Assembly: GCA_051362555.1 (NCBI GenBank)
Contig: CM120646.1
Span: 124,001 to 188,000 of the forward strand
Reading direction: 5' to 3'
From: Lingula anatina
Lineage: Eukaryota; Animalia; Brachiopoda
DNA: 64,000 nucleotides
Of the stretch, positions 6,231-52,318 are shown piece by piece. Below the pieces are notes generated by a model that made no database searches, had not been told where the DNA came from, and saw only the letters and a program-made list of their open reading frames with translations. Numbering within the stretch: position 1 is the stretch's first letter; each line of letters opens with the position of its first letter. The position numbers and the translations under genes were made by a program.

Positions 6231-6471
6231 AATGTCCCTAGCCCTGCCTGGCCTTGGATCTGTAGATCTGTGTGTGACACAGGCAGGTGCTGGAGCCGTG
6301 GGGAATAGATGACTTTTCATTATTAGGATCAAATTAGTCTAGAACACAGCCTAGATTTAAATGTTGCCTTTTTATTTCAGAAACAAGAATGGTTTTTTAC
6401 TCTATATAGTGTGTTGTAAGGACAATAATATTATGTCAGCATCTAATTGCTGTTATTAATACAAAGTTTAT

Positions 6472-18572: not shown

Positions 18573-21516
18573 TTAAATTCAAATTAATTCCACCACCTTG
18601 TCATCATTTGTTGTTATTGTCTACATACAGGACAGACCTAAACCTCCAAACTACACATACCAAATACCCAATGCAGCCAAGAAGAGGAGAGATCAAAACA
18701 AAAGTAAGTGTACGAAATTCAGATTAAAGCATTTCTCTTTAAAAGATTTAAGCTACATTGTTTAGTATACATGCATGTTATAATTTTATTAAATAATGTG
18801 TAAATAAAAACTGTTGTCTATTATTCCTTTTCACATAGGCAATATTTGAAAGATGCATTGAGATCTTTAAAAAAAATTAGAAGAGATGAGAAAAACTTGG
18901 CGTCAGTAACATATTTTGCTATCAGCATTCAAGCAAACAGTGAAAGTTCTATAGTAAAATAAAGCTTTACATTTGTCTGATATTTTAGTAACAGCCAGTA
19001 ATTTAGCTGAGAAGATTAAGTCGAGCTTTAACGCTTCAAGTTTTGCTACGCTGACTAGACGAGGAGGAAGCAATCGACCACAGACTATTTCAACGAATCA
19101 AAAGATCTCCAAGTCATCTAGTGAACCAATGAACCTTGTGACAGACAAATCACCAGGTATAGATGGCAGCTGTTGCTTGTCATGGATTGACACTAGATGG
19201 CAGCATTGTATTATATTATATTATAGGTGGAACCACTGTTCCCAGTAGCTGCCATATCATACCCAGATCCATTTCTAATCTAGCATACATTATGAATTAA
19301 ATATTTGCACTTAAAAGCATTTTCTTAATAGCTAACATTTATAACCATAACACTTAAAAATTGATATTTCTTCATGAACAATTAAGTATTATGAACATTG
19401 AACCAATAAGATTTGCAATAAGTGTAACAGTTGTGGTTTGTTTGTGACAGCCATATTGACATTGTATAAATCACACCACTACAGATCAACCTGATAAACA
19501 CGTCTCCCCTTTCCTCACAGATAAAGAGAAGGCTCCCAGTGTACCGGGCAGTAAGAAGACAGGCTCCACTGCCAGTCTATCCAAGATAGAACAGATGACC
19601 ACTGGCCTGGACTCTACCAGTGTGGACAACACCCCCTCAGAGAGTAGCAGTAACAGCATGGCACGACTGGAGACAACGTCCAGCGCTGGTCAGCTGCCCA
19701 GTGGAGCAGTTAGTGGGGGAAGAGTGGAGCAGTTTGAGGCAGTCAACAGCAAGGGTCAGCCTATCAGACCACCGGGTACCCCTCCAACCAGACATAAGGG
19801 GAAGAAGTTTGCACCATCTGTAATGGTACGTTACAGCACAGGGCAAGAAGGGGGGGGGGGGGATAATCATACTAGCCTAACTTTCTATTTCATCAGAATG
19901 ATTATTGTATGACGAAATCAGTTGTGAATTAATTGTGCAAAGAAGTAGTGAGGTATTAATAAGAAAAATGAAACTTTTCAAAAAATCACTGAGGTTTTCA
20001 GTTTATTTAGTTAACTTGCTGTCTATATATCTCTGTCCTAGGAGTCTGAGCTGAGTCATAAACTGGCGTATGCCCAGGGCCAAGTCAATGATATGGAAGC
20101 TATGGCAAGATACTGTGCCAGTAAGATGGATATACACATAGGTAAGTGATGTATACATATGGAAGTCAGACACTGTGCCAGTAAGATGGATATACACATA
20201 GGTAAGTGATGTATACATATGGAAGTCAGATACTGTGCCAGTAAGATGGATATACACATAGGTAAGTGATGTATACATATGGAAGTCAGACACTGTGCCA
20301 GTAAGATGGATATACACATAGGTAAGTGATGTATACATATGGAAGTCAGATACTGTGCCAGTAAGATGGATATACACATAGGTAAGTGATGTATACATAT
20401 GGAAGTCAGATACTGTGCCAGTAAGATGGATATACACATAGGTAAGTGATGTATACATATGGAAGTCAGATACTGTGCCAGTAAGATGGATATACACATA
20501 GGTAAGTGATGTATACATATGGAAGTCAGATACTGTGCCAGTAAGATGGATATACACATAGGTAGGGAGTCCTTGATGTTTATGTTTAGTTTGTTTTATA
20601 TGTGTGTGTGCGTGTGTGTATGTGTGTGTCTTGATGAGTGAAGAAGTCTGTTGATTACCTAATCCAATGTTTTAGTCATATTTTGATCTTTTATACAGTT
20701 TTATTGATGGGGGACATGTTCTATCTTACAGAAAAGCTTCAGTCAGAGCTGCTACATCAGAACGTGGAGAATGAAGATGAAATACTCCTGTCTTTAGCTG
20801 GACTAAAGCAGGTACCTGACATCCTCATGATGGTTTAGTGTTTGTCTTAGGTGCACTCTTTTCTCAGGTGCACTGCATTTAATTGGTAACTCCAGACTGT
20901 TATAATTAATTGGTAACTCCCCACTCTTTTATCAGTCATTAAATTGGTAACTCCTGACTGAAATATCAAATAGTTTATAGTAACATTCACTGTGATGTCT
21001 TGTTTGAAGGTGCGTGACATTCTGAAGGGAACTCTCAAATTCCAAAGAGGTCTGGAGTCAGAAGAGTTTTCTATTAGAGAAAACCATTACCAAGAGGTAC
21101 ATCAGCAAGCTGAGTCATCATTGGACAGAAAGAAGTCAGATGACCAATTTTCAACATCTTCATCCAATCAAAATGGGACATTCAATATGCCTGCTGTACA
21201 GCAATTGTATGCTGGCAGCAGTGAGGATGGTTTTAGTGACAGTCCTTCCCCAGTTTTGGAGAACAAAACATTCTTGAGTGATAACCCTACTAACACACAT
21301 GGGCGATATGTTATTGAACCTTCCCCAAATTTTAGAGCTGACATTGTTATGGCTGGAAGTCCACAAACTAAGAAACGCTACAGTCACGATTTTAGCCGGC
21401 GCAGACACGGCAGCGGGAGAAGAAGCCACTCTGACTCAGAAGACGCTGCTGGTTTATTAGAAAGCTCAATGGAAGTACACAATCCTACTGGGAAGCTGAG
21501 TTTTGATTGGTCCTGA
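7367..21516 (+). CDS. TBC1D5: TBC1 domain family member 5 (Rab7 GAP, retromer-associated), multi-exon
   Basis: Exons: 7367-7406, 7916-8027, 8958-9066, 9398-9487, 9694-9765, 11187-11254, [11576-11678 or 12834-12939], 14303-14391, (15068-15088 optional), 16128-16178, 16594-16663, 17195-17361, 17475-17617, 18238-18344, 18631-18703, 18989-19156, 19521-19825, 20042-20141, 20732-20811, 21010-21516. All are GT-AG and phase-consistent, ~817 aa. Motifs match TBC1D5: EWERLF, LRSTRFRSVIWK, NNPLSQ, IKQDVIRT (Arg finger), YKQGMHELLAPLIFVLHCDHQAFLHA, PQIYGIRWVRLLFGREF, LAGLKQVRDILKGTLKF. The start codon is inferred. Confidence 0.93.
7969..8724 (+). repeat. 75-bp minisatellite, 10 copies of exon 3' end plus 5' splice site
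   Basis: tcctactg|GTaag/GTagg donors at 8028, 8104, 8179, 8254, 8329, 8404, 8479, 8554, 8629, 8704. Confidence 0.9.
9727..10948 (+). repeat. 75-bp minisatellite, ~9 copies of exon 3' end (DLSVNNPLSQAEE) plus donor, interrupted by a MITE
   Basis: gaggag|GTatgt donors at 9766, 9841, 9916/10474 (split by the MITE), 10549, 10624, 10699, 10774, 10849, 10924. Confidence 0.9.
9919..10471. mobile_element. ~550-bp MITE with ~110-bp TIRs and 5-bp TSD AGGTA
   Basis: CAGGCCTAACCAACTACCAG ... CTGGTAGTTGGTTAGGCCTG, with aggta at 9914-9918 and 10472-10476. Close second copy at 31509-32059. Confidence 0.9.
11576..11678 (+). CDS. TBC1D5: TBC1D5 Gln-finger exon, variant A (YPRIEFFHSNKVRNMMVDGLFIYAKIKPDVSYRQ)
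   Basis: cattgcAG|c...tatagacag|GTtatt; 103 nt, phase 2 to 0, open frame, ends in YxQ. Confidence 0.75.
12834..12939 (+). CDS. TBC1D5: TBC1D5 Gln-finger exon, variant B (FPELEFFQHDKHGVQPMMVKILFCFARATDSKYKQ)
   Basis: attttAG|t...tacaagcag|GTttgt; 106 nt, phase 2 to 0, open frame, ends in YxQ. Confidence 0.8.
13165..13402. mobile_element. Palindromic MITE-like element; related copy at ~51180-51370 and a more distant one at ~37722-37932
   Basis: gctaaattgc...ttaagcggcttagatgtctg is mirrored by cagacatctaagctgcttaag...gcaattta. The same arms recur at 51200-51360. Confidence 0.6.
14358..14770 (+). repeat. ~74-bp minisatellite, 6 copies of exon 3' end plus donor
   Basis: (g)taga|GTaagt donors at 14392, 14466, 14540, 14611, 14685, 14759. 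Confidence 0.85.
15068..15088 (+). CDS. TBC1D5: Candidate 21-nt frame-preserving TBC1D5 microexon (DQFPDDQR when spliced)
   Basis: ctatctttttattgcAG|tcagtttcctgatgatcaaag|GTttga; phase 2 to 2 matches the flanking exons, no stop. Confidence 0.45.
16426..16640 (+). repeat. Triplicated 3' splice site plus exon start separated by (ATTT)n
   Basis: AG|cacaatgttctgtcagat at 16436, 16539, 16594; only the last continues as the full exon. Confidence 0.8.
17805..18278 (+). repeat. 68-bp minisatellite, 7 copies of polypyrimidine tract, acceptor and exon start
   Basis: tAG|tgttaacaggagac acceptors ending at 17829, 17897, 17965, 18033, 18101, 18169, 18237. Confidence 0.9.
18508..18571. repeat. (CT)n microsatellite
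   Basis: Direct reading. Confidence 0.9.
20108..20564 (+). repeat. 60-bp minisatellite, 8 copies of exon 3' end plus donor
   Basis: cacatag|GTaagt every 60 bp from 20142 to 20502; the last copy is GTaggg at 20562. Confidence 0.9.
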
Positions 21517-24690: not shown

Positions 24691-27600
24691 TCACAGTTCT
24701 GTATGTAATCCACGGCTTTGGTTCTCCTCGTCATACTTCACCACCCACTTGGACGGCTGTTCACACGTCAGCTGACCATCTGGGCAAAACCTGCGATATG
24801 TCACGTCCTGGGAAAACCCAAGAATCTCGCGCTCCTCTTGGATACGGAATGAGAAAGTGGACACATAGGAGCCAATGAAAACCCTGCAATGAACAAGCAG
24901 ATTCCACACTTTTCTAAAATATGTTGATGGAATGGCATAACCAGTCAAAAACAAAAGGCTAAGATTTACTATGATTAGAATATGTAGTAATATTTTAAAA
25001 AGTGAACCATAACTTCAGAGAATTTTTATTAAATAGCTTGTATACCACTGTGCAAAAACATGTAAAGATTCCATCACAGCTGATTGATTATAGGATTCCT
25101 GGCCAAATATGTAAAATTTTCTACATCACTATCAATGCATTACGACACTTACCTTGCGTGTGCACATATCCACTGATCTATAATAGCAATACCGCCATCT
25201 TTAAAGGACTCCAGCACCTCTTTGGTAGGAGTATATTTGACTACTTTGTAGCCCTGTAGGTACCCCTTCAACTCCTCAAACTCTGCAAATTAAAAAAAAA
25301 AAAAACATAAACGTAGTGCAACTCATTACCTCCTCAGACAAGTTTAATACATGAACCATGGAGTCCTTGTAATGACCAGACAAAATTTTCTGAACTTAGA
25401 CTTGTGAAGATTCTTTTGTCTATAGCTATTTTTTTTTTTTTTTTTTAGTTTGATCTTACCATCCAATATTTCATCTGCTTGCAGTCAGATTTCATCAGGG
25501 AATGAGGTTGTGACAGGTATGACAACCTGTCACCCCCTCTGGTGTGCTATTTGGTCAGATCCCCCCAACTCCTAGTTTCTCACGTATAGTGTAGAACAGT
25601 TTCATTAGCTATGTTATTATAATAGACTTGTGAAGATTCTTTTGTCTATAGCTATTTTTTTTTTAGCACATATATTTTAGTGGCACATTTCAGCACTAGG
25701 GAAGATGACATTGAATTTCAAGTTTAGCTGTGACAAAGTTAACAGTGTCTAGGTACATATATAAATGGTTCCACAACATTATTTGGTACTTCTTTGGCAT
25801 CACTTAGTGTACAATGGGGCTACTTTACTCTAAAAAACACAAAAAAGGAGCCTCACAAGACAATAACTTTAGATCTTCACCAAAATTCAAAAGAAGTATT
25901 TCTGATAGTACCGGTACTACACAACCATTTTATGACAGACATGATTCAACATTTGAAGAAGAAAGTCTGACAAAGGTAGACACTGAAATCCTCATTTTTA
26001 AGGATGAACATGATGTTCCAAGTAGAAGAGGCCTAACTGACAAAAATATTCCGGAAAAAGTTGTTCACAGAAGCCAAGAAAGCATTTCCAGGTCTTTGTC
26101 TTGGCCATCCATTGCACAAATCATAAATGGACCAGAAGTTCAATTTACCAACCAAGATGACTGCAGCACAACAACATGGAGTAGACTGCGTCTGTCTGAA
26201 CCACTAGACAACAGCAGCAGATCAGGCAGCTATGCTAGTACAGCAAGTCAGACGTTTTTAAGTTTTCCACCTCTAGAAAATGTCAGAGTCAGCAGAGCAT
26301 ACAGCGACATTGGGCTTCTGATACACCAGACATCCTTGGATGAGGAACAAAACTTCCCAATATTTGCAACTAGAGGTAAGTTTCTTTTAATCATTTGGAA
26401 ATAAAAATATGTACACTTCTTTTAATTTTTAAAAATGATTCTATCAGCCATTTTTAAAAGCAATGACTTATAAATCCTCTTCTCCAAAGCAAGGATATAT
26501 GTACTAAATTAATGATAATTGTATAAATGCAAATCATAATTGCATATGTTGTTATAGATGAAGTATTTCATATTCCATACTTATTCTTTAACAATACCCA
26601 GATATGAAAAAAAAAAAAATGAAGTCATAAAAATTGAAACAGTACTGTAGTTGCTACAGAAGGAAACTTTTTTTCATGGCTGTTATATTAACTGAATACT
26701 TTTCATTAATTGTTTTCCCAGATAATGAGAGGCAGGAACCTTGTGTGACCCACAACTACATCACCGTGATAAACCATTCTGGATCCCAGACCAGTTTCCA
26801 AGTAGGAGATGGTGGCAACACAGTGTATTTTGGCAGGAATGAAACTATAAATGAACTGTTATAAAAGCAAACATGAAGCTTATTAGTGTGGTGGAAAAGA
26901 GGGATTCACGTGCAAACAATTGTAGCGGTGCAATTTCTCCGCAATCCAGAATAATGACGCTGTGATTTCTTTTTCATAAATTTAATAAGATAATGAAATA
27001 TTTACGCTACTAAGTGCACCAGCTGCTAATCGTCTGCTGCGCCGCCATGCTCCTTTTTCCGCTGACGCTACCCCGGTTAATGCACACCGGCACTATATTT
27101 ACCCCGTTACATGATGTATCATACCTAAATTTTCTTAACCCTTGATGTCTAAATTTTTTTATTCTTAGGTGTTCCCAGAGCAAAAAATGCCCCATGGGGA
27201 TTAAATTTAATGATATATAACACCCTGTGGCTCAAATAAGTGCATTTGAAATAATAATATAACTTTGTATTTATTGGGTGTGTGTAAAAGTTGCCATCTA
27301 CTTCTAGTCTATGGCAAAAACAATCATGATGCTTATATTTTGTATTTATTGGGTGTGTGTAAAAGTTGCCATCTAGTCTATGGCAAAAACAACCATGATG
27401 CTTATATTTTGTATTTATTGGGTGTGTGTAAAAGTTGCCATCTAGTCTATGGCAAAAACAACCATGATGCATATATTTTGTATTTATTGGGTGTGTCTAA
27501 AAGTTGCCATCCAGTCTATGGCAAAAACAACCATGATGCTTATATTTTGTATTTATTGTGTGTGTGTAAAAGTTGCCATCCAGTCTATGGCAAAAACAAT

Positions 27601-30600
27601 CATGATGCTTATATTTTGTATTTATTGGGTGTGTGTAAAAGTTGCCATCTAGTCTATGGCAAAAACAACCATGATGCTTATATTTTGTATTTATTGGGTG
27701 TGTCTAAAAGTTGCCATCCAGTCTATGGCAAAAACAACCATGATGCTTATATTTTGTATTAATTGTGTGTGTGTAAAAGTTGCCATCCAGTCTATGGCAA
27801 AAACAATCATGATGCTTATATTTTGTATTTATTGGGTGTGTGTAAAAGTTGCCATCCAGTCTATGACAAAAAACAACCATGATGCTTATATTTTGTATTT
27901 ATTGGGTGTGTGTAAAAGTTGCCATCTAGTCTATGGCAAAAACAACCATGATGCTTATATTTTGTATTTATTGTGTGTGTGTAAAAGTTGCCATCCAGTC
28001 TATGGCAAAAACAAACATGATGCTTATATTTTGTATTTATTGGGTGTGTGTAAAAGTTGCCATCCAGTCTATGGCAAAAACAACCATGATCAATGCTTAT
28101 ATTTTGTATTGATTGTGTGTGTGCAAAAGTTGCCATCCAGTCTATTGCAAAAACAAACATGATGCTTATATTTTGTATTTCAACGTTGATCCAGCCACGT
28201 TGACTCAATGTTGTATTTTGGTCAATGCCACAACCTTGCAGTTATGGATTGTTATTTAAAATATTAATTATTGAAAACGTGATACTTTGTTGATCAATAC
28301 TGTAACTAAATTTATCAAAATAATAACAAAATGGTTTTAAAGTAAAAGTGACAGTTGTTTTGTGTCTTTAGTTAACTAGTGAATTTTCTTAACTTGTTAT
28401 TCAGAAATACATTCCAACTAGAGGATCAGAGAGGCGATACCGCCTCCGAATATTGTACCACCAGCTGGAGTAAGCGCATTGGTATAGGCCCCCCCCCACA
28501 AAAAAAGGGACACCACCACCAGTCTTGTGCTTGACAAGCTGTAACAAGGCAGCAAAGCTGTCAAATGTACAGACAAAAAGCAGGAAATAACTATGCACAA
28601 AATAGGCTACTGTCAATTCTGATGCAAAAGTACATTATGTTAAACTGTAAATTCAACATCAAATTTTAATTATGCTCAACAGAAAATACCAATGAAAGTA
28701 AAATGTGTAACAAGCATAAGGCTTCAGGCCCATGAGAGTTCAAGTTCACACTTTGAAAATGTATAACTTCCAGAAAAAGAAGCCAATTAGACTGCTTTTC
28801 CAACTCAGGCTGCATGCCGATTTTCGAACTTGACCTCCGTTTTAGTAAGATCGATTACTCCTGAGAGTTTCACGACAACAGGCCTATCGGTTTTCCTTGA
28901 AATGTGTTTACAGTGTTGCATATATGTTGAAAAGTGAAAGAAAAAAGCATAACTTCTACAATAATGGCCCGATCATCCTGATTTTCGAACTTGACCTGCA
29001 TTTTATGAATATTCATCAGCTCTTTAAATATAAAGCCCAAAAGTAAAACTGCCTTCCACTTATCGTGTTTACAATGAAAGTGCAAGGTGCCGGCAACGGC
29101 GATGACGGCGACGACAGACGCAGGTGATGGCAATATGTACAGACACATCTGTACATATTTACTGTACTGTTTGAGAACAGTAAGTGACATGGTTTTTCTT
29201 AAATGGTCATCATGGGAGCAGTGCCCAAAATAGGTTTTTTTCAAATTTTGACGCAATATTACATAATGTTTAACAGCATAATGACCTTCAATTTTTAAGA
29301 ATACAATATTAGTATCATGGATATTCAGAAAATGTGACTAGCAAAGGTCTTCAGGCCCATGGAACTTCAAAGTCACAACTTGAAAATGCCAAAATGTAAA
29401 CAAGACAGCACTGTTCTGAAATGTTTTTTTTCCATTTTTAACAATTTTTAACATAAAACAAAATTAACAGTTTACTGCCATTTTTATATTATCAACTAAG
29501 AAAATTGATGAGATGGGAAAAATATCAATATAACAGTGTTAAATGTCCAATTTCTTCCATTCTGAGATTCTGAACATAGTGAATGATTGAATCTGACAAA
29601 CTGCAATGATGAGTTTATTTCCATTTTTGACACTTTATTACACAATACACGATAAAAAGTTTACCATCATTTTTACAAAATCAACTAACAATGTTGTAAA
29701 GATGCAGGAAATGTCAAACAAACACTTTTACGTATCTTATTAGTTTAATAATGAGACTGTTAACATGCCTAAGAATTGAATCTGAGGAAATGTGAAAAAT
29801 ATGCTGAAAAGTGAAAAAACCAGCATAACTTCTACAATAATGGCCCGATCATGCTGATTTTCGAACTTGACCTGCATTTTATGAATATTCATCAGCTCTG
29901 TAAATATAAAGCCAAAAAGTAAAACTGCCTTCCACTTATCGTGTTTACAAGGAAAGTGCACGGCGCCGGCATCGGCGACGGCGACGACAGACGCAGGTGA
30001 TGGCAATATGTACAGACACATCTGTGTCTGTACATAAAAATGCAATCAACAAGAATTCTCAAAATATGCAAAAAAATATATAACTGAAATGGTACAATCA
30101 AAGTTCAGTTCATCGTAAGGTAGGTCAAAGGTCAATTTCAAGGTCACAGTAAATTTCCAGTTTATGACTTCCTATTTAAGTTCAATAGTAACTATGGACC
30201 TATCTCAGCCAGTTTTGGAGATAAAAGGGAACCAAAATTTGTAAAGTTCAATTCATGATGAAAAGGTCAATTTCAAGGTCACACTTAGATTGCCAGTATA
30301 AGACTTCCTATTCAAATTCAACAGTAACTATGGGCATATCTTTGCCAGTTTTGGAGATAAAAGGGAACCAAAATTTGCAAAGTTCAGTTCATGATGAAAA
30401 ATAGGTCAAAGGTCAATTTTAAGGTCACAGTAAATTGCCAGTATATGACTTCCTATTCAAGTTCAATAGTAACTATGAACCTATCTGTGCTAGATTTGGA
30501 GATAAAAGGGAACAAAATTTGTAAAGTTCAATTCATGATGAAAAGTAGGTCAAAGGTCAATTTTAAGGTCACAGTAAACTGCCTCTAATGACTACATATT

Positions 30601-30775
30601 CAAGTTAAAAAAATCCCAATATTTGAAAAATGTTGACAGTGCATAAAATAATATTACATAATGTTTAAAGACATAAAAGCCTATGCAACTGCTTATGTGG
30701 AAATACAGAAAATCTGAAGAGCTTCAGGTGGATGGGAGTTGAAAATGCCAGTGTTTAGAAAAAAAAACACAACAA

Positions 30776-30810
<35 letters not shown>

Positions 30811-32642
30811 CCAATAAAGCTGCCATTCAAACTTTAAATCTTGCTGTATTAACATGATATGAATAACCCAATGTGTTTGAGGATAATAAGGCACTGTTAT
30901 TCATCTATAGCATTAATGTTAGCATTACACATTTTTTTTTTCTTTTGTAAACTTATTTGTTATATTAAACAACATTTACCTGCATAATTATCACCAATTC
31001 CTAATTATGTGACACAGTTAAGAGAGCTTAACCTATAGGACTTGAATGGGAAATCTCAACGTGTGTTTTATGTAATCTTATTTAATGGGCACTTGAAAAT
31101 TAATTAGGCAAGTGATTTTATATCTCTGAATTTAGCTAGCGATTATCCCAAGGGACAATTACCACCATCCATAAACAGTAGCCCCATATAGCACTCTATA
31201 GAGCTGCATTGCTTCCAAAACAGAAAACAATCACACTGATATCCAACACAAGCTACACTTCAGTCCTATGAAACTTTTTAGTAAGTTAGAATATCATAAG
31301 TAAAATGGTCCCGGCAGCGATGTCCAAAACAGGTTTTTTTCATCTTTTATGCAATTTAACATAATGCTTAACAGCACAATGGCCATCAATTTTTAATAAT
31401 AAAGTAAATGTACCATAGATATTCAAAAAATATGACAAGCAATGGTATTCAAGCCAATGGAAGTTCAAAGACTAAGTCACACCTTGAAAATGTCCATATG
31501 TGAAAATTCAGGCCTACCCAACTACCAGACTCGGCACCTAAGGATCCTGAATTAACCGGTATATGGGACCACAATACCCATTTTCAAGGTGTGTGTCAGA
31601 TAGCATTTCGGAGTATCATATCCCAGAACAAATTTTGTAGCATGACTGCGGGCTCATCCACGCTCGGCTGAACAACCTTAAACTGTACTCTTACTTTAGA
31701 GTACTCTATTTTATTGTCTCTATGGGGATATATGGGGACTTTACGACATTCGGTTTGAATGTTTTAATCACTTTTGATAGGGCTTTTTTGCATTGTATTA
31801 GATTAATGTGGCAGTCTAAGGTTCATCTAGGTGGCTTTCAAATTTATGCACCCGGTTTTAAAATCATATAGCGATTTTACGACAATCGTTTACTATCCAA
31901 TCAAGGTGACAGTTGAGCATGCCAGGGCTCATCCTGTCGGTGTTCTGGCTGATACTCCGAAATGCGATCTGACACACGCCTTGAAAACGGGTAGTGTAGT
32001 CCGATATACCGGTTAATTCAGGATCCTTAGGTGCCGAGTCTGGTAGTTGGGTAGGCCTGAAATTCTAATTGTAACAAAAAACTATATAATTTCCAAGAAA
32101 GTTAACCGATATAACAAGATTTCCAAATGAAGCTATAATTTAGTCCTATGCTACATTTCTGTAAGTTTGAGAAGAGTAAGTGACTTGGTTTTCCTTTAAT
32201 GGTCACTATGGAGGCATTGTCTAAAATGGGGTTGTCTTCAATTTTGATGCAATATTACATAATGCTTAACAGCATAATGACCATCAATTTTTAATAAGAA
32301 AATAAAAGTATCATGGATATTCAGAAAATTTGACATGGAAAGGTCTTCAGGGCCATGGAAGTTCAGAGTCACAACTTCAAAATGCCAAAATGTACACAAG
32401 AGATAACTGTACTGAAATGAATTTCCTTTCCACTTTCAACACCTTTTTTTACATATATAAAAATAATCAATTTACTGTCGTTTTTAAATGATCAACTAAG
32501 AAAGTTAACGCTTGTGGTACAATAAACTGAATTGCTTGCAAGGTCAGCTAACACTAGGATGAATAAGTTGCTGTAAATATGATGGAGTAAACAGTTCTTG
32601 GTAACCTGTTATAGATAGACAGGTTGAGGTGACTGTGACCTT

Positions 32643-32675
<33 letters not shown>

Positions 32676-35600
32676 TAGAAAGGATCTATATATATTAATC
32701 TAAACCTTGGAAATTTTAACTTGAAGGCCATACATTTATACCCTACATATATTTAGCCATCAAACATGTCCTACTGCTAAACACATCCATGCAAATTTCC
32801 CGCTGGGTGGGGTTGATATAACATAGTTTTCTGATGTTGATACGTTGTTATCTGAGGTTGACACAACTTTCAAATCCAACGTTTATTCAATGTCTTTTCA
32901 ACGTTATGGTTCAACGTTGTTTCAACATTAAAACAACATAATTTGCCCGCTGGGTATTTTGTATTTATTGGGTGTGTGTAAAAGTTGCCATCCAGTCTAT
33001 GGCAAAAACAACCATGATGTTTTAATTTAGTATTTATTTGGTGTGTGTAAAAGTTGCCATCCAGTCTATTACACAAACAACCATGAGTGAAGTATCCAAC
33101 AATGTGACATAAAATTCTTAATAAAATTGACCATATTGAATTGATTTGGAATTTTTGTTTGCATGTTTGCATTATTTGGTCATATCTTTTTGCTAATTAC
33201 AAGTTTTTAGTATAAGACACAGTGTTAAAATGTTGATGCTGCAATTAGGGTTATCTTGAGCCCTCTTCTCCTTATGAAAGTACATTTGGGACCACTGGGT
33301 CCCCTCAAAACAACTCATTATCAATGAAAAATGTACTCAGTTTATCAATTAATTCATTTATTAAAAATTATAATATAATCTCTTGCTTCAAATGATTCTC
33401 ATATGTCAGAAAGGGACGCTGATGATGGTGATAAACATCCCAAAGGACATACCTATTAAAGATAATGAATCTGGAAACAAGAAACTAGTGGCATTTCTCA
33501 AAAACCAATTCTGACACTCAGAAACCAGAAGTTGGTTTTTTCAAACTTGTGAACTCCTGAAGATTTAATTTCGCATATAAGTCTGATTAAACATAGTTTC
33601 AATCAGGGTTTTTCCTAGGATTTGGGGTACAGTGTCTACTAATTGTAAATCTGCCATTAATAACAGATTCACATGAAGTCCAACCAAAGCTACAAAAAAA
33701 AAAAATCTGAGAGTGAGGTGGGAAGGGGGTACTTTTTAATTTATTTTATTAAAATATTCAAAATTTATTACTGAATAAAATTCAATAAAAATTGATAGAA
33801 TATTCATTGTATTATACTTAAGTTATATTTATGTTAACAATTTAACTTCTTTTGGTGTTATTATGTGACCGTTTGATTTTTTTAAATATATGAATTAAAT
33901 AAAATCAGTTTTAAAAAATCCCCTTTTTATTTAAATTCTCATAAATTAGTTATTACTAATTTCTCCCTTACATCAATATCACACTGGTATATGACAGCAC
34001 TGTTAATTTATCAAATTCCAGCACAAAATTTTGAACTATAAATAACATAGGTGTTGCTAGAGTCATTTAAAAAATGAAACATCTTACAAAATTTCAGATT
34101 ATATTTTGGCAAATAAACAACATTTCAACATGATCTTCAGTCCCAAAGATTTCACTTTCTAACTTCGAATGGTTGTGAGTACATAGCCTACAAGGTATTT
34201 GATTGACAGGCAGTATGTTGCCTTAACAACGAACTAGATATATCCAGTTCATCTGGTTCAATCTAGCTATTGTACCCATACCAGTAGTTGTGTAGTTTCT
34301 ATTTAAGGAATGGTCTTTACTACTAGAGCATGTATATTTTTAACCAAATAAATATTCAGTTGTCAACCTGTTATGTGAACAAATTCTGTCTTGTGAAGTT
34401 TTGGAAGGTGCTAACTTTCATAATTTGGCGGTAAGTTTGCTCAGACATCGTTTTGGGACTACATGTGTTTTGTGCCAAATGTAGGCCACTCTTTTCAATG
34501 CCGTGTAGGAAGAGACGAAAAGACATTTTGTATGCAACAAAAAATATTTCTTTTTCAAGATTTTTGTTCCAAAGTTCTCATAAAAGATGACCTGTCCGTC
34601 GGACAGCCAACCCTGCAAATTCACCTGTCCGAACTGAATTTTTACCTGTCCCGGACAGGCGGACAGGTGCTAATGTCGAGCCCTGCTTCAACAATGAAGT
34701 CATGGGTTTAACACATGGGTACATGCAGTCTATCCTTACAGTGCACTAAAACAGGTCAGTCAGTATCAATGGCACACAGGAAGCGTCCACTGTGGAAACC
34801 AGGCTGGGCAATATGGTCTCTCTGGGCCACGCAGAGAGGGCAAAACAGTTGCACATCAGTATTTACAGCGCACATACCAAAACTATACGAAGTTCACAAA
34901 CGCGCAAAATTGCTTTCTGGTTGAAATTCATGCATCCCAAAAAACTCCAGAACCACAGATTTTAAGCTAATTTGAAGTTTATGAGCCATTCAAAATTCAC
35001 AGTAATCAGTGGAATGTATGATTTTAATAAATACAAAATAAAACCTTACTGTTTTATCTATTTATATACAAATATGACCTTGGCGTGCTTCTTTTATCTT
35101 TGATCAAATATTAGCCTCCTCCCATAAATACCAGAAAGTATGATGCTGGGAAATAACCTTGATGCTTACAGGGTGTCCCACTAGTGCACTGTTAATGTAA
35201 CCCAAGAGTGTGAATTTCATATAGAAGTTAGCAAATCTACTGCTACAAATAACATGTCACTTGCTTTACTGACAAAGACATTATTGCCCTTTATAGAATA
35301 TGTTCCAAATATACTGTTTTGCTGAAGATACATGTACATGAATTCTACAGATGAAGATGTCGATGATTTTGATTCACTCTTCCTTTGGTATAGCTCTGAT
35401 TTCTTGAGTGATTGCTGCTTTTAGCTCTGGAATGGTGTGGGGGTTGTCCCTGTAGACTCCCTCCTACAGAAACCCCAAAATATAGAAATCTGGGGGATTA
35501 AGATGACCACTCAGGTTTGCATTTGTGGCCAATTTGTTGGTTGGGAAACTTGTGCCCCTGCTGAACACCGTTTGCACATCTTACACGGCTCATGAGCCCA

Positions 35601-38600
35601 AGTCTATGCCAGAATTTGTACAGACCCTCCAAATAGAGTTCCTTTGGGGGTATCTGAAAGATCAAGTCTACAGAAACAACCCCAACACCATCCCAGAATA
35701 ATAAAAATAAAATTAATGGCGTCCATGTTCTTGGGCTACATTTATACTTGGACACCCTGTAAAGAAGGTCTTAATCAAAGATAAAATATTTTTATAGTAA
35801 GTAGGTTAAAATGATGAGCTAGTGAACAGTGCCTTATTATGAAGATAAACGGTGGTGAGAGCACTTAGTTGGTGGCACTCAAGGTGAAACTTCCCTGTTT
35901 CACACATGGATAACTACTGAACTTTTTTATATAAGCAACAGGTATTCTAGCATCAATGAACTAGCCATGGGGTTGGGTTTCTCCAAAATATCTTCCAGTA
36001 AAACATACCACATGTCTTCAGCAAGTTTCACAAGTTACCAGAAATACAATAGTGCAAGAGCTACAATGTATAAGAAACATAGTACACCACTGAAAGCATT
36101 TGGCAAAGACAGTCAACCACAGGAAGACACAGAACTACTCACCAACGAAGATGATGTCTCCAACAGAAGATACCTAACAGGCAAAAACAACCAAAGAAAG
36201 GCCAAAATCAGTAGATACCTAGATAAGGGCGGAATTGCCAGATATTTGAGTTGTCCGAACATCGCAACAAGTCCGTCTTCTAACAAAAACGAACCAGGAT
36301 TTGCCATGCAAGGTGACTTCACTAGACCATCACTGCAGTCTTCTTTTACTTGCAGCCCATCAGATCTTAAAGGTGCCAAATCATGCTTGTTGAAGCAAGG
36401 TAAGCTTCTTTTAATCGATTAATAATAACACAAAAAAAGAACACTTCCTCAGTTACATTTTATCATCCATTTTAATAAACAATGACTACCTCAATGAAAG
36501 CAAGCAGACAAAATTAATGCTTATTGCATAAGTACATCTATAATTGCTTTCAAAATTATAGGTCCTTATAGATGATGTGTTGGTTATTCTTCTCCCCTTT
36601 GAAAACATTTGATACTCCACACCTAATCTTTAACAAAACCTAGTTAAGGGAAATAAAAGATAACAGAATACAGAAAAAATGCAGTTGTATACTAAAACAA
36701 TTGAAACAATAGTTGCTACAGAATGTAACTCTTATAATTTTATTGAATACTTCTTGATTGTTTTTCCAGATAATACCAGCAAAAAGGAGGGTAATGTGAT
36801 CAATGTGTACCATTATTACAATATCCTACCTGGATCCCATGTCAATCTCCAAGTAGGAAATGGAAACAGTATCAATTTGAACAAGGATGAAACTACAGAT
36901 GAACAAACCTAGCCGAGGATACATACATATCATTTAACAGACTGTAAAAGAATATCAAGTACAGGGGCGGATCCAGAGATATTTTCTGACAGTCTTCCAA
37001 ATTATTTTTGTTAATCCATCCTCCATTTTTGACCGTCTTCCGACAGAAAATATTAGATACCCGTCAATGTAAACTTTAAAATCTGACCGTCTTCCGGAAG
37101 ACCCAGAAGACGGCCTAAATCCGCCCCTGAAGTACTGTACTATACTGCACTAGTAGCTGGGGTAGCACTTGCAATTTTTTTTTTGCTAAGCCAAATCACC
37201 ACATTTTTGTCAATTTCTTATCAAAATGGTTAGAATTTGGCTAAAACAAGTCAAATCAGGCCCTTTTTCTTTAGCCAATTTAAGTCAGTTTTAGCATTTG
37301 GCTAAATTGGCGAGTGTTAGCGCTACCCCAGAGTAGAGTGATGGGCTGGTCCCTCACCAGAGTGAGATGAAATGAGCTGTCATTTCATTTATTAACACAA
37401 AATGATCATGGACATCTGACATACTTACTGATGGCAAAGAGGCTCCATTTTCATCTCCGTCTGTCTATCAATTTGTTTTTTCATTTGTCATCAGACTAAA
37501 TCAAAAAGTTTTGGATGGATCTGATAAAATATTCAGGATAGGTTATCATTGGCTAACTTGCACCACATTCACAACCAGAGTTGACCAGTGGACTGAATAT
37601 GGCCGATGCACTTGAAAGCTTGCCATGTAATCACCATGGGAAATCTATTCAGTGTACATTAGTGGATTATGCGACAAGCTTTCAAGGCAGACCACCATAT
37701 CTGATCCACAGATCTGTTACACCCCATTTCCATAGATTAGATCGAGCTACTTTAGATCGACCTAACTCCCTGGGGTTCACGCTAAATAGCTGTCAGCCGG
37801 GCGGACACGAAAGTTAATTACCCCCTTACAGCTTGTAGTAGGCGGGACGGACATTTAAGTCGGATTATCTGAAAGTAATCTAGTGAGACTCCCTGCGGGG
37901 ATAGATCGATCTAAAATCTATGGGAATAGAGCCTTAGTCCATGGATAACCTTCTTCTGAATGCACCCTTAAAAAGTGATTAGGATTTGGCGGTGACCTTT
38001 CATCCACATCATCTGGACCTAAGAACCTTTAAACGTTTCTTCACGCTAGCAAGATACACAAGGCCAATGACTTTGACCTTGTGCAATGTCCTCTCAATTC
38101 CACAATTTATCTTAGGATCTTTGGCATTGGTCTGTGCTCTTTAAGTACTTTTCTAGTTTACAAACTCATAATGACAAGATTTTATGTAATACTCATGTGC
38201 CTGACACTTGTTCTTTGCAGAGAATTGGGTGGATTTTTGTATTCATGTGATTAGAAATACAAATTCTGGACCTTCCTGTTGTGAAGCTTAAACTTATGGA
38301 AGCCCTCCCCCCCCCCCAAAAAAAAAAAAAAAAAAAAAAACATCTGATCCATGTACTCATACAAGATATGTTAAGATATGATACCACAACTAAATGTTAA
38401 CTTATGACGGCCCTGTGTTAAGTCTACTATAACCTTCTATGCACATATTCTACATATATCCACATACATAAGGCACTCTGCACAGGATATCATATACCCA
38501 ATTCAATGAATTTTCCTGATAATAAAAAAGCAATACTCTTCCTGACCAAGCATTGCTCAGCCAGTCCAATGTTTTATTCCATTAACATTAAGGAACCCAT

Positions 38601-41600
38601 ATAGTTCTAAATTACTGGTCAGTTATTAAGAATCACAGCTTCCTCCCTTGACTGAGCATGGTGTAGTTTTGATTTCATAACACAAGAAAATGGTTCAGAT
38701 TTTACGGGATTTAGCATCTTTAAGGTTTGAATTAGGAGATGTAAGAAGCTCCTCAGAAAATGAATATGACTGGAGAATTTCCAAATGCATGTAGAGTACT
38801 TTTAAGAAGAGATCATTATGATAGGTAATGTAATCTAAGCGCAATTTTTAATGTCCCATTCACGCCACATATCTATTTGTATGATATGCAGTTAACTGTT
38901 TGTTTGATTACGCTATCCCTACATTGTGTTCCCCAACTTCTCATATAAGTCATTCATACAAATGTACAGAGCAACTTTTACACCATTCAACTGACTAAGT
39001 TTATTGAATAACAAAAGTATTGCATGTTTCTGGGAAAAGAAAAATATTGTATTAATTGGTCTTTCTCTCATGAAATGTATGCTCAAAACTGAATGGAAAG
39101 ACTACTGTGTTTTGAGAATCAGTTTAATTTAAAAGATGTTGCAATTATTTCTTGATGTTGTATTAAGAACATGTAGAAAATAAAGGGAACTCTACCAAAG
39201 AGTTATAATTACCACCAAATACGGGCAAATATTACAGTGGGCAATGAAAAAATGTAACTAGCAGACCCATGGGAATTCAAAGTTACATCTGGCATAGGCC
39301 ATCTTCAAGATAAAAAATAATTAGGCAAGTTTTCAAACTCCAACAGCATTACTGTATTTTAGTCCTAAAATAATTCTTGCAAGACGATGAAAATGGCACT
39401 GACAGACACAAGTGTTGGCTATGTATTGAGACACTATGTATCTGTCATAAGGAGAGTGGGGAAAACCTCACATCATTAAAACCATAATGGCTGTTCCTTC
39501 CTGTGCCAGAGATATCATTCAGGTTAATGCCAAACCCAAACTTCATTTAAACAAGAGAGACCTTTTCTTATGATTATTCCTATGGTGACAGGTTAAGTAA
39601 ATAAAACAGTAGAAGTATTCCAGACACGATAGGAACAACAGATTCCTCTTGACCTGACAGATAAGAAGATTGGCTGCAATCTAACCAGACATCTAAGCTA
39701 AAAAATATATCTAGACACTTTACAACAAAGCAGCAAAGTTGCCCAATGTACAAACATGAAGCAGAAGCTAATGACAGCGCACAAAAAAAGGATTTTTGTC
39801 AATTTTGATGCAATATGTGTCTGTATATAATAATGTGTCAAGCAGTTCAAACAAGATTAATAATTAATTACAAAGAAACATCATTTTGGTTAATTTGATT
39901 AAAACTCAGCAATAAAAAACCTTTGTAAAAATATGAATTGTTCAAGTCATTGTTAAACATCCATCTTACTGGAAGTATATTGCATTTTGCCCATTAATTA
40001 CCCAGTGCCACTCAAGATAAGCCACAATCAATGCTTAACATATGTTTCGAACAAGTTTTTTCCTCCTTTTAAAATATTATTTTACTGTGTGTAAACTTTG
40101 ATTACCTGATATTCAAATATACAACTTCATAATTTCCATGTACTTAATCCCCCCCTCCCCCCAACAACCCTCTCCATGACAGGCTTCACTATATATATAT
40201 ATATATATATATGTCATATTGTTCACAAAAGCAGATAAATTTATAATTTGACATGTGATGTTAAAATCAAACAAACACACAATTTATCTTTTAGAAATTG
40301 AGAAACTGGTCTGATCTGGTCTGATCTGTTCCTGGCATTCCTACTGCAAAAAACATGCTTATGAAGAGGGTCCCATTGTGGGGAGTGTCACAGGAATGGG
40401 GTTGTTCAAGGAACATGCTAAATAATATCAGTGTTTCATGTATCTTGGTAAATAAAAAGGGGCTTTCACAAGTAATAAAAATACCCTACAAGAACCTCTA
40501 TGAAGCTCTGTCTTTCACTGCCATATATGTAACTGTACGCTCCTAAAAGCTGATAGGGATGATGTCATTTTTATTGTTGACAAATCAGTTTTCCATGTTG
40601 GTGAACAAGTCACTTGTTCGTCAGATTTTGATATTTGGTATGTAGACAAAAACATGAATCATTTCACGTAAACAAGCCTATGGCCAGCAACTTCAAAGGG
40701 AGTTGTGTGGTATAAAAAAAGTGGAGCTTAAACCTAAGTGTACCAAACCCTTTCCCCTTCAAATTTCCCCCCCCCCTCCCCCCAAGCTATGGGCCTGATG
40801 GATCTTTCAGCAGCAGCCAGTCTGCTAAATTAGCAAAAACTGCACGTCTACACTGAGGCATAACTTTATCGGTATACTAAAATTCACAACCTCGTTAAGC
40901 ATACCTTTTTTTTTTCAAGGTTCTCTTTCATGTCAATTTGTGAATTATCATATATTATTAATTATTTTGATAATTAACTTCATTATTGTTGTCATTGTGG
41001 AGGATAATTTTCTATAATAAAAAGTAATATTCCTAGATTTTGTTGATGTTATTTCTAATCTTGCACTATAAGGATATAAAAAATGAGATTTTAGTAAACA
41101 GTTTTCACAAGGTAAAGGATATTAGATGGTCATTTAATAAACAGGTGCTAAAAATATTTAATTTTCCAAAAGTTTCTCACCTTCTTTTGGAGCATCTGTG
41201 GCCACAAAGACAGCCTTCAGTTTGTGTTTCTCCAGCCCAGACTTTATCTGTTCTGCTGCATACAACAGACTGGGGACTTCTTCTTTGTGGGCATACAGGT
41301 AATCTCTCCGCCTCAGGTGAATACTCAGGTATGGCCCTCCCAGCGCGTCACCATGCTTTCTCTGGAACAAACACAGAGACGATATTAAAAAAAAAACAAA
41401 AAAAAAACAATAAGATGGTAATGAAGGGAAACTGATATTCTTAAAGGGATAATAACTCTTCGTTTCGGCCAAAAAATGAATTTTCCTAGAGTAAACATCA
41501 ATTTTCCCACACTTACAAATGGTTAATGAATCCATTTTTACATTCAAAGTTAGTCCCTGGTTTTTTCTAAAAAGTTTGTTTTTTTGTCAAAATCACTTAA

Positions 41601-51479: not shown

Positions 51480-52318
51480 AAACAAGGCAGCAAAGCTGTC
51501 AAATGTACAGACAAAAAACAGAAAATAATGATGCAAAATAGGTCATTTTGTCAATTTTGATGCAATAATAAATAATGCTTATAATAGCACTGTTAGTCAA
51601 CACTGAATTTTAATCATACACAACAGGTAACATGGTCAATAACAGGAGTGGACCCAGAGATATTTTCTGACAGTATTCCAAAGTATCTTTGTTGATCCAT
51701 CCTCCATTTTGATGGTCTTCCAACAGAAAAAAAATAAATATCGGTCAATATAAACTTAAAAACCCGACCGTCTTCCGAAAGACCCAGAAGATGGTCTCAA
51801 TCCATCCCTTCAATAAGATTACACTTTCAGGACCATGAGAGTTCAAATTCACATGATGAAAGTCCCAATATTTGAAAAATGATGACAGTGCATAAAATAA
51901 TATTTCATAATGTTTAAAGACATAAAAACCAATACAACTGCTTATGTGGAAATACAGAAAATGTGCAGAGCCTCTGGCAGATGGGAGTTAAAAGTCACAA
52001 ATTCCAGTGTTTGAGAAAAAATTAAAAAGGAAAACATAAAAAAACTAGAAAAGCACTCTGAGAGCGCAGACCTCTGCCAAGGCAGCAATTTTTGATAATT
52101 ATTGATTATTGATAGATTACTGACCCGAACCACCACCAAAAACTAATCATTGTCCTCCTTGACCCACTCCTGACAGTTCCTGAAAATTTCATCAAAGCCG
52201 TTCCATAACTTTTTGAGTTATGTTGATGGCAGACAAACAGGGGTGAAAACATAACCTCCTTGGCAGAGGTAAATATAATTCCAATGAAGCTGCTATTCAA
52301 ACTTTTAATCTTTGAGTT

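What the first reader, a model, noticed from the sequence alone, without database searches (positions are those of the whole stretch)
25814..36912. Two nested antisense paralogues encoding putative myristoylated RHIM-like adaptor proteins inside POFUT2 intron 7
Seen: two TATA-preceded two-exon genes with the same intron phase, equal 143-nt second coding exons and homologous intron ends. The proteins are very divergent but keep (i) MGLxxSK, (ii) a central block [23 protein letters not shown] / [21 protein letters not shown] followed by RSLSWP / RYLSCP, and (iii) a C-terminal beta-prone stretch plus [12 protein letters not shown] / [11 protein letters not shown]. Knowledge: MGxxxS(K) is the N-myristoylation consensus; RxxSxP is a mode-I 14-3-3 site; (I/V)Q(I/V)GxxN is the RHIM amyloid core of RIPK1, RIPK3, TRIF and ZBP1, with cryptic versions in insect Imd and PGRP-LC. 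Inference: a membrane-tethered, phospho-regulated adaptor whose only recognisable module is an RHIM could nucleate or inhibit amyloid immune or cell-death signalling in an invertebrate. I cannot assign this architecture to a named family.
Basis: partly seen in the sequence, partly recalled or inferred. Interest (0 to 1): 0.85.

Follow-up and report, generated by a model that had tools for sequence, protein, structure and literature searches.

The report
Orphan gene pair with RHIM-like tail
Two unannotated sister genes lie inside an intron of the brachiopod Lingula's POFUT2 gene and encode small proteins without a predicted fold that are predicted to be lipid-anchored and would, if their short RHIM-like tail is genuine, join or block amyloid-type immune signalling; only the motif itself supports that last step so far.

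Summary
Two two-exon ORFs on the + strand (25814-26864, 234 aa; 35967-36912, 191 aa) share GT-AG phase-1 introns, 143-nt last coding exons and homologous introns. They lie antisense in intron 7 of POFUT2. That gene's exon 2 is 100% identical to the NCBI Lingula anatina protein, so the host is a brachiopod, not a mollusc.

Coding is well supported: there are no stops in frame against 2-20 in the other frames, exon indels preserve codons, and exon GC is 36-42% against 25-28% in the introns. Both proteins keep MGLxxSK, an R-[S/Y]-L-S-x-P site and a C-terminal Φ-Q-V-G-x-G-N segment next to their most beta-prone stretch.

The RHIM reading is not established:
- The Pfam RHIM model gives no hit.
- The strict V/I-Q-V/I-G tetrad is not met (FQVG, LQVG).
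- No solved RHIM chain matches.
- No homologue exists in 1.84 billion representatives, so conservation cannot be tested beyond the two copies.
- No expression data could be obtained, and the genes are absent from the annotated Lingula proteins.

Literature does place a RHIM-bearing RIPK1 in Lingula. My verdict is that these are real, fast-evolving orphan genes and a plausible but unproven RHIM-type adaptor or decoy. Their intron is unexpectedly better conserved than their exons.

The parts
25758..25765 (+). TATA-like box (TATATAAA) 56 nt before the gene A ATG
   Evidence: weak, because TATAWA occurs 2.6 times per kb in the window
25814..26375 (+). Gene A coding exon 1 (562 nt; aa 1-187 plus the first base of codon 188)
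   Evidence: 0 stops in frame against 6-20 in the other five frames; in-frame TAG two codons before the ATG (ORF opens at 25808)
25814..25834 (+). Gene A N-terminus MGLLYSK, N-myristoylation-type pattern
   Evidence: PS00008-type pattern, recalled
25979..26047 (+). Gene A conserved central block (aa 56-78, DTE...DEHD-V...RR-LT-KN)
   Evidence: mismatch at codon position 3 (0.41) exceeds positions 1 and 2 (0.29, 0.26) here
26090..26107 (+). Gene A RSLSWP, mode-I 14-3-3-type site (aa 93-98)
26376..26721 (+). Gene A intron (346 nt, GT-AG, phase 1, 25% GC), homologous to the gene B intron
26722..26864 (+). Gene A coding exon 2 (143 nt including TAA)
26742..26774 (+). Gene A most beta-prone 11-mer (aa 195-205)
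   Evidence: Chou-Fasman values recalled
26796..26819 (+). Gene A RHIM-like segment FQVGDGGN (aa 213-220)
35928..35934 (+). TATA-like box (TATATAA) 39 nt before the gene B ATG
   Evidence: weak
35967..36399 (+). Gene B coding exon 1 (433 nt); MGLGFSK is the first Met of the open frame
36126..36188 (+). Gene B conserved central block (aa 54-74)
36240..36257 (+). Gene B RYLSCP, mode-I 14-3-3-type site (aa 92-97)
36400..36769 (+). Gene B intron (370 nt, GT-AG, phase 1, 28% GC)
36770..36912 (+). Gene B coding exon 2 (143 nt including TAG)
36847..36867 (+). Gene B RHIM-like segment LQVGNGN (aa 171-177)
41182..41388 (-). Host gene POFUT2 coding exon 7 (aa 282-350 of P0003)
25152..25271 (-). Host gene POFUT2 coding exon 8 (aa 355-394 of P0003)

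Best explanation
Two tandem two-exon paralogous genes lie antisense in intron 7 of the Lingula anatina POFUT2 gene and encode 234- and 191-residue proteins with no predicted fold; these are predicted to be N-myristoylated, would bind 14-3-3 once the serine of a conserved R-[S/Y]-L-S-x-P site is phosphorylated, and likely use their conserved C-terminal hydrophobic-Q-V-G-x-G-N segment as a RHIM-type beta-strand motif to dock onto, seed or cap assemblies of the species' RHIM-bearing RIPK1 at a membrane. Shown here: the gene structures, the paralogy, the coding signatures, the nesting, the presence of the three motifs in both copies, the absence of a confident fold and the absence of any detectable relative. 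Inferred: expression, lipidation, phosphorylation and 14-3-3 binding, and above all the RHIM-type function. I put the RHIM-type function at about 0.4 if the genes are real, and the genes being real at about 0.8. By analogy with Drosophila Pirk/Rudra, a small inhibitor with a C-terminal RHIM-like motif (PMC4262963 section 4), I lean towards a regulator or decoy rather than a signal generator. The fast divergence of everything outside the motifs would fit an immune-type arms race.
For: Coding and splicing:
- The reading frame has 0 stops, against 2-20 in the other five frames of exon 1.
- Shuffled exon 1 stays open in 0 of 20000 (A) and 2 of 20000 (B) trials.
- Exon GC is 36-42% and intron GC 25-28%.
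- GTAAG donors, pyrimidine-rich AG acceptors, the same intron phase and equal 143-nt last exons.
- 7 of 9 exon-1 gap runs are multiples of 3 (P=0.008) and the other two sum to 63; in the intron, 3 of 10 are multiples of 3.

Motifs:
- Both copies fit the N-terminal myristoylation-type pattern and R[SFYW].S.P. The latter occurs nowhere else in 127,996 six-frame residues of the window.
- The relaxed tetrad followed by N occurs 4 times in that translation. Two are these genes, which leaves a background of 2.
- Nucleotide identity peaks coincide with the central block, the 14-3-3 site and the QVG region.
- The Q-V-G codons are identical in both copies.
- The most beta-prone 11-mers lie 7-8 residues upstream of the tetrad.

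Non-globular context:
- AF2 gives mean pLDDT 46 for exon 1, with 0 of 187 residues at 70 or above, and 58 for exon 2. Both rest on two-row alignments, so this is weak evidence.

Partner and precedent, from papers:
- RIPK1-like proteins with a conserved RHIM tetrad are reported in Lingula species. L. anatina XP_013410819.1 is listed as a RIPK1 homologue (PMC12119088 passages and one row of supplementary file 4).
- The natural tetrad variant LQIG still activates NF-kB in a human RIPK3 chimera.
- Pirk/Rudra is a small protein with a C-terminal RHIM-like motif (PMC4262963 section 4).
- The extended form hydrophobic-Q-hydrophobic-G-x-x-N-x-hydrophobic, which gene B fits exactly and gene A fits with one extra residue, is recalled from memory and comes from no call.
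Against: - 0 of 4 exon peptides hit Pfam RHIM at E<=10. The only hits were unrelated families below their cut-offs.
- The strict tetrad [IV]Q[IVLC]G is absent from both proteins. An F at the first position is not among the variants tested in PMC12119088.
- A profile of the two exon-2 peptides, and each peptide alone, hit no RHIM chain in the PDB at E<=10. Only MR1 and TCR noise appeared.
- No homologue was found, so conservation of QVG rests on two related copies. Exhaustive HMMER over 1,835,955,588 representatives gave 2 hits at E<=0.001, and both were tandem-repeat artefacts with 12 and 9 matched stretches, which I discarded. Word searches gave 0. Metagenome and viral scans gave 0 confirmed of 120 and 119 pattern matches.
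- Codon-position mismatch is flat overall (0.44, 0.435, 0.444; chi-square P=0.99). In the QVG part, position 3 changes less (0.28) than positions 1 and 2 (0.36, 0.41; n=28-29 each). Protein-level purifying selection on the tail is therefore not shown.
- The annotated NCBI Lingula proteins are in the searched database (POFUT2 was found at 100%), yet exon 1 of gene A matched nothing. The genes are therefore not annotated as proteins there.
- Gene B has no AATAAA or ATTAAA within 1.5 kb of its stop.
Confidence: 0.33

Rival explanations
1. The genes are real and encode lipid-anchored, disordered proteins built from short linear motifs, but the C-terminal segment is not a RHIM. It would be an ordinary peptide motif or short beta-strand that binds some other partner, and the Q-V-G resemblance is chance. 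The protein would act as a phospho- and 14-3-3-switched membrane scaffold unrelated to amyloid signalling.
For: Every formal RHIM test failed: Pfam, PDB and the strict tetrad. The relaxed tetrad occurs 12 times, and the tetrad followed by N twice outside these genes, in 127,996 six-frame residues. A proteome would therefore hold many chance matches. Exon 2 shows no protein-level purifying signature. The coding evidence is the same as for the best explanation.
Against: The tetrad lies in the best-conserved part of exon 2. It is flanked by the most beta-prone stretch and by G/N residues, in a protein with no predicted fold, in a species reported to have a RHIM-bearing RIPK1. No alternative partner or family is suggested by any search.
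Confidence: 0.3
2. The ORFs are not functional genes. They would be unexpressed or decaying duplicates, or young de novo ORFs, whose motifs have no role.
For: They are not among the annotated Lingula proteins and have no homologue anywhere. Mismatch is flat across codon positions. The 200-nt flanks are unalignable, so promoters are not visibly shared. Gene B has no canonical poly(A) signal.
Against: Two copies that have diverged to 54-58% nucleotide identity both keep open frames of 187 and 144 codons (0 and 2 of 20000 shuffles). They also keep codon-preserving indels (P=0.008), conserved splice sites, phase and last-exon length, and an exon/intron GC contrast. In the central block, position 3 changes more than positions 1 and 2.
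Confidence: 0.15
3. The conserved unit is mainly a non-coding element, either a regulatory element or RNA of the POFUT2 intron or an intron-borne element of the nested genes. On this reading the coding sequence is secondary.
For: The intron is better conserved (72%, 221/308) than the exons (306/555 aligned columns; Fisher P=1.4e-06). It is also better conserved than fourfold sites at identical residues, of which 14 of 25 differ (P=0.006).
Against: There is no Rfam family in the window. The two introns share no convincing structure (-4.65 kcal/mol). This reading does not explain the open frames or the codon-preserving indels.
Confidence: 0.05

Closest known systems
Drosophila Pirk/Rudra/PIMS (negative regulator of the IMD pathway)
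   Same: [quoted passage not shown] It acts by binding RHIM-like receptors or adaptors (PMC4262963 section 4; PMC13506858 passage).
   Different: No sequence similarity was detected in any search here. Pirk has internal 18-residue repeats. I recall no N-terminal MGxxxSK or 14-3-3 site for Pirk. It is an insect protein, not a brachiopod one.
RHIM of RIPK1/RIPK3 (Pfam PF12721), including Lingula anatina RIPK1 XP_013410819.1
   Same: Both have a hydrophobic-Q-V-G core followed by a G/N-rich turn, in a non-globular, beta-prone context. The same species holds a canonical RHIM protein (PMC12119088).
   Different: The first tetrad residue is F or L rather than V or I. There is no HMM match, and there is no kinase or death domain. 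Roughly four to five extra residues lie between the upstream N-x-x-G and the tetrad; that comparison is from recall.
TRAM/TICAM2 (vertebrate N-myristoylated sorting adaptor that recruits the RHIM protein TRIF)
   Same: It has an N-terminal MGxxxSK-type myristoylation signal on a small immune adaptor that works at membranes upstream of a RHIM protein. This is recalled; PMC9440496 was seen only in a search listing.
   Different: TRAM has a TIR domain and no RHIM. The proteins here have no TIR domain.
Viral RHIM decoys (e.g. cytomegalovirus vIRA/M45) and the bivalve and bivalve-iridovirus CARD+RHIM proteins
   Same: In these, a RHIM is used to sequester host RHIM proteins (PMC13506858 passage). 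RHIM proteins are present in lophotrochozoans and their viruses (PMC12452177 passages).
   Different: Those proteins carry other domains and are recognised by standard RHIM models. The proteins here are not.
Fungal and bacterial amyloid signalling motifs (HET-s PFD, PP, BASS)
   Same: They are short G/N/Q-containing beta motifs that work by templated assembly and are related to the RHIM at profile level (PMC4262963 section 4).
   Different: They are attached to NLRs or HeLo-type effectors, and no such partner gene lies nearby. I could not run a profile-profile comparison because no RHIM or HET-s alignment could be obtained from a tool.

Membership tests
RHIM (Pfam PF12721; RIPK1/RIPK3/TRIF/ZBP1 type) | Match to the Pfam RHIM profile | tested here: not met
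   0 of 4 exon peptides matched at E<=10. HMMER filters may drop very weak matches.
RHIM (Pfam PF12721; RIPK1/RIPK3/TRIF/ZBP1 type) | Core tetrad V/I-Q-V/I-G (definition used in PMC12119088) | tested here: not met
   the strict pattern is absent. A has FQVG and B has LQVG. The L-first variant LQIG is natural and active in a chimera. An F-first variant is not reported there.
RHIM (Pfam PF12721; RIPK1/RIPK3/TRIF/ZBP1 type) | Sequence similarity to solved RHIM chains | tested here: not met
   no RIPK or RHIM chain at E<=10.
RHIM (Pfam PF12721; RIPK1/RIPK3/TRIF/ZBP1 type) | Tetrad conserved across homologues while the flanks vary | tested here: inconclusive
   Q-V-G is kept in 2 of 2 copies, with identical codons. 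No further homologue was found.
RHIM (Pfam PF12721; RIPK1/RIPK3/TRIF/ZBP1 type) | Non-globular, beta-prone sequence context | tested here: met
   Searches gave pLDDT 46 and 58 from two-row alignments. One search placed the top beta-propensity 11-mers in exon 2.
RHIM (Pfam PF12721; RIPK1/RIPK3/TRIF/ZBP1 type) | Homotypic or heterotypic amyloid assembly | not testable with these tools
   Complex prediction never accepted the job because its queue was full. Peptide fibril assays are needed.
Cryptic RHIM of insect IMD-pathway proteins | V-x-x-G core (as written in PMC13506858) | tested here: met
   Read: VGDG in A and VGNG in B. A two-residue pattern carries almost no information.
N-myristoylated proteins (NMT substrates) | Gly-2 and an M-G-{EDRKHPFYW}-x-x-[STAGCN]-{P} start (PROSITE PS00008 type, recalled) | tested here: met
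   MGLLYSK and MGLGFSK.
N-myristoylated proteins (NMT substrates) | The ATG is the true translation start | tested here: inconclusive
   In A, an in-frame stop lies two codons upstream. In B, there is no upstream in-frame Met in the open stretch. No transcript data exist, so an upstream exon is not excluded.
N-myristoylated proteins (NMT substrates) | Lipid actually attached | not testable with these tools
   Needs myristate-analogue labelling and a G2A mutant.
14-3-3 mode-I clients | R-[S/aromatic]-x-pS-x-P (recalled consensus) | tested here: met
   RSLSWP and RYLSCP at aligned positions. These are the only 2 matches in 127,996 six-frame residues.
14-3-3 mode-I clients | Serine phosphorylated and bound by 14-3-3 | not testable with these tools
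   Needs phospho-proteomics or a pull-down.

The most novel reading that the evidence does not exclude
Lingula carries a lineage-specific, rapidly diversifying pair of lipid-anchored 'RHIM-only' proteins that nucleate or cap RIPK1 amyloid signalling at membranes under a phospho/14-3-3 switch. They would be the first membrane-tethered RHIM regulators in any animal and the first RHIM pathway modulators in Lophotrochozoa, and current annotation misses them because they are nested antisense in an intron.
Probability: 0.2. Interest if true: 0.8.

Novelty: new variant of a known kind. Interest (0 to 1): 0.45.

Why it matters
RHIM signalling outside vertebrates and insects is barely charted. A RIPK1 with a RHIM is reported in Lingula and in bivalves, but no small regulators are known there. 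If these proteins are RHIM-type adaptors or decoys, three things would follow. Amyloid-based immune signalling would be shown to have lipid-anchored, phospho-regulated modulators. The Pirk-like logic of a small motif-only inhibitor would be seen to arise independently in a lophotrochozoan. And there would be a simple test pair (tail peptide plus Lingula RIPK1 RHIM) for how far the tetrad can drift (F or L at position 1) and still co-assemble. Even if the RHIM reading fails, the locus is a clean example of unannotated, fast-evolving orphan genes nested antisense in an intron, with an intron conserved better than its exons.

Tried and rejected
- **Expression:** The look-up of sequencing runs listed no RNA holder. 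This is not evidence either way.
- **Whole genome:** none is held for this window, so further paralogues outside the window could not be sought. Within the window there are only the two copies.
- **Earlier scan notes:** none for this genome or sequence.
- **Homologue searches, all blank:**
  - Word search with exon 1 of A: 34 candidates, none at E<=1.
  - Exhaustive HMMER with the exon-1 profile: 2 hits, both tandem-repeat proteins, which I rejected as artefacts.
  - Exon-2 profile against longer proteins: 40 candidates, none at E<=10.
  - Metagenome contigs and viral contigs.
  - ESM Atlas: best score 0.80 for exon 1 and no usable hit for exon 2.
- **Complex prediction (4 copies of the exon-2 peptide):** The queue was full and nothing was folded, so homotypic assembly is untested.
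- **Profile-profile comparison with a RHIM or HET-s alignment:** not possible, because no RHIM sequence could be obtained from a tool and I did not use remembered sequences.
- **Rfam and tRNA scans of the window:** nothing found.
- **Shared intron RNA structure:** not convincing.
- **NF-kB-type sites (GGGRNNYYCC):** 6 matches at 3 palindromic sites (5985, 11515, 17501). None is near either gene, and the count is not above shuffles.
- **Bacterial promoter/terminator scan:** irrelevant to a eukaryote.
- **Nei-Gojobori dN 0.68 / dS 1.38:** not used, because large parts of exon 1 are unalignable and dS is near saturation.
- **Literature:** the listing for RHIM plus N-myristoylation (13 papers, 10 listed, titles and abstract starts only) showed no lipid-anchored RHIM-only protein. 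I did not read those papers. Supplementary files of PMC12119088 other than one row of file 26 were not read.

Full report
**1. The observation**

- Gene A runs from ATG 25814. Exon 1 is 25814-26375 (562 nt). The intron 26376-26721 starts GTAAG and ends TTTCCCAG. Exon 2 is 26722-26864 (143 nt with TAA). The product is 234 aa.
- Gene B runs from ATG 35967. Exon 1 is 35967-36399 (433 nt). The intron 36400-36769 runs from GTAAG to TTTTCCAG. Exon 2 is 36770-36912 (143 nt with TAG). The product is 191 aa.
- Both introns are phase 1.
- The copies are paralogues. Exon-1 peptides give BLASTP E 7e-07 (33/107 identical) and exon-2 peptides give E 6e-05 (10/25). The introns align end to end.
- Only these two copies exist in the window.
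- The TATA-like boxes are present (25758 and 35928). TATAWA occurs 165 times on the + strand, so they carry little weight.

**2. Where it is**

Pfam O-FucT matches on the - strand flank the pair. One exon, 47211-47531, matches human POFUT2 structures (4ap5, E 4e-35). It is 100% identical to a protein that NCBI names GDP-fucose protein O-fucosyltransferase 2 isoform X2 [Lingula anatina] (P0003).

tblastn of P0003 against the window finds nine coding exons on the - strand. Genes A and B lie between exon 7 (41388-41182) and exon 8 (25271-25152), which is intron 7, and they run antisense. The animal is therefore a brachiopod.

The rest of the intron holds a 69-bp satellite, a 136-bp repeat and MITE-like elements.

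**3. Are they genes?**

The evidence for coding is good.
- The reading frame of exon 1 has 0 stops, while the other five frames have 6-20 (A) and 2-11 (B).
- Mononucleotide shuffles stay open in 0 of 20000 (A) and 2 of 20000 (B) trials.
- Exon GC is 36-42% and intron GC is 25-28%.
- In a MAFFT DNA alignment that knows nothing of the frame, the exon-1 gap runs are 12, 3, 9, 6, 9, 18, 45, 37 and 26. Seven of nine are multiples of three (P=0.008) and the last two sum to 63. The intron gap runs are 4, 9, 14, 1, 10, 28, 18, 2, 11 and 3, with three of ten being multiples of three.
- In gene A, an in-frame stop lies two codons before the ATG. In gene B, MGLGFSK holds the first Met of the open stretch.

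Some evidence points the other way.
- Mismatch is the same at all three codon positions (0.44, 0.435, 0.444). Only the central block shows position 3 changing more than positions 1 and 2 (0.41 against 0.29 and 0.26).
- The annotated Lingula proteins are in the searched database, yet exon 1 of gene A finds nothing. The pair is therefore not annotated as protein there.
- Gene B lacks a canonical poly(A) signal within 1.5 kb.

Expression could not be examined.

**4. What the proteins look like**

Neither exon peptide gives a confident fold. AF2 mean pLDDT is 46 for exon 1 and 58 for exon 2, both from two-row alignments. About two thirds of the residues are polar or disorder-promoting.

Nucleotide conservation is concentrated in four places: the start, the central block (aa 56-78 of A), the R-x-x-S-x-P site and the Q-V-G region.
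- Both N-termini fit a PS00008-type myristoylation pattern.
- Both proteins have R-[S/Y]-L-S-x-P at aligned positions.
- Both have hydrophobic-Q-V-G-[DN]-G-(G)-N, which lies 7-8 residues after their most beta-prone 11-mer. The patterns and propensity values are recalled.

In the six-frame translation of the whole window (127,996 residues), the 14-3-3-type pattern occurs only in these two genes. The relaxed tetrad followed by N occurs four times, and two of those are these genes.

**5. Is the tail a RHIM?**

Every formal membership test failed or was inconclusive.
- There was no Pfam RHIM hit for any of the four exon peptides at E<=10.
- No RHIM chain in the PDB matched the exon-2 profile or either peptide at E<=10.
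- The strict tetrad V/I-Q-V/I-G is not met; the copies have FQVG and LQVG.
- There is no homologue in which to test conservation:
  - Exhaustive HMMER over 1.84 billion representatives returned two tandem-repeat artefacts, which I discarded.
  - Word searches returned nothing.
  - Metagenome and viral scans returned nothing.
  - The Atlas returned nothing.

Four things speak for the reading.
- Passages of PMC12119088 state that RIPK1-like proteins of Lingula species keep the RHIM tetrad. Its supplementary file 4 lists L. anatina XP_013410819.1 as a RIPK1 homologue.
- The same paper states that the natural variant LQIG still activates NF-kB in a human RIPK3 chimera, whereas TQIG and VQSG do not.
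- Kajava et al. (PMC4262963, section 4) describe Pirk/Rudra as a small IMD-pathway inhibitor with a C-terminal RHIM-like motif. They also stress that RHIM profiles lack statistical power.
- Bivalves and a bivalve iridovirus have CARD+RHIM proteins (PMC12452177 passages).

**6. Mechanism**

I commit to this reading: a membrane-tethered (predicted myristoyl), phospho/14-3-3-switchable, non-globular protein whose C-terminal segment likely engages RHIM assemblies of Lingula RIPK1, more probably as a regulator or decoy in the manner of Pirk.

What is shown is the anatomy, the paralogy, the coding signatures and the motifs. What is inferred is expression, lipidation, phosphorylation, 14-3-3 binding and RHIM-type assembly. 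I give the whole chain 0.33.

The main rival keeps the same proteins but treats the tail as an ordinary, non-amyloid motif (0.30). Non-functional ORFs get 0.15. A mainly non-coding conserved element gets 0.05.

**7. An unexplained feature**

The intron is better conserved (221/308 columns, 72%) than the exons (306/555; Fisher P=1.4e-06). It is also better conserved than fourfold sites at identical residues, of which 14 of 25 differ (P=0.006). The 200-nt flanks do not align at all.

No Rfam family and no shared structure explains this. Intron-borne regulation, local gene conversion or accelerated change in the exons all remain open.

**8. Verdict**

This is best filed as a possible new variant of RHIM-type adaptors, not as a demonstrated member. 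Interest is moderate. The candidate is coherent and directly testable, but it rests on one short motif in two related copies, with no expression data and no relatives.

Noticed in passing
window 26376-26721 and 36400-36769: The intron of the two paralogues is better conserved (72% identity) than their coding exons (54-58%) and than fourfold synonymous sites (14 of 25 differ), while the flanks are unalignable. No Rfam hit or shared structure explains this.
   Followed up: partly
window 26003-26017 (A, aa 64-68) and 36144-36158 (B, aa 60-64): The conserved central block holds DEHD-V in A and NEDD-V in B. This is an acidic x-E-x-D motif before a small residue and resembles a caspase cleavage site (recalled). 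Cleavage there would separate the lipid anchor from the tail. This is pure speculation.
   Followed up: no
window 27264-28180 and 32956-33086: A 69-bp satellite with 13.1 copies at 94% match lies just 3' of gene A. A further 1.9 copies lie 5 kb downstream, in the same POFUT2 intron.
   Followed up: partly
window 36955-37128 and 51636-51809: A MITE-like element of about 170 bp with short terminal inverted repeats lies about 45 nt after the gene B stop codon. A copy with 83% identity lies 15 kb away.
   Followed up: partly
window 31504-32064: An element with 115-nt inverted arms (94% complementary, 331 nt apart), probably another MITE.
   Followed up: no
window 30127-30631: A 136-144-bp tandem repeat of about 3 copies, followed by a 50-nt A-run at 30759-30808.
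   Followed up: no
window 17461-17637 (+): An ORF fragment with a weak RabGAP-TBC match (E 1e-4, below the cut-off) suggests another + strand gene upstream of POFUT2's 3' end.
   Followed up: no
window 6460-7307, 8036-8641, 10459-11028, 20006-20671: Long open frames (190-279 aa) whose Pfam matches have no single significant stretch. They are probably repeat-derived or low-complexity ORFs rather than genes.
   Followed up: no
window 25397-25438 and 25623-25664: A 42-nt exact direct repeat upstream of gene A.
   Followed up: no
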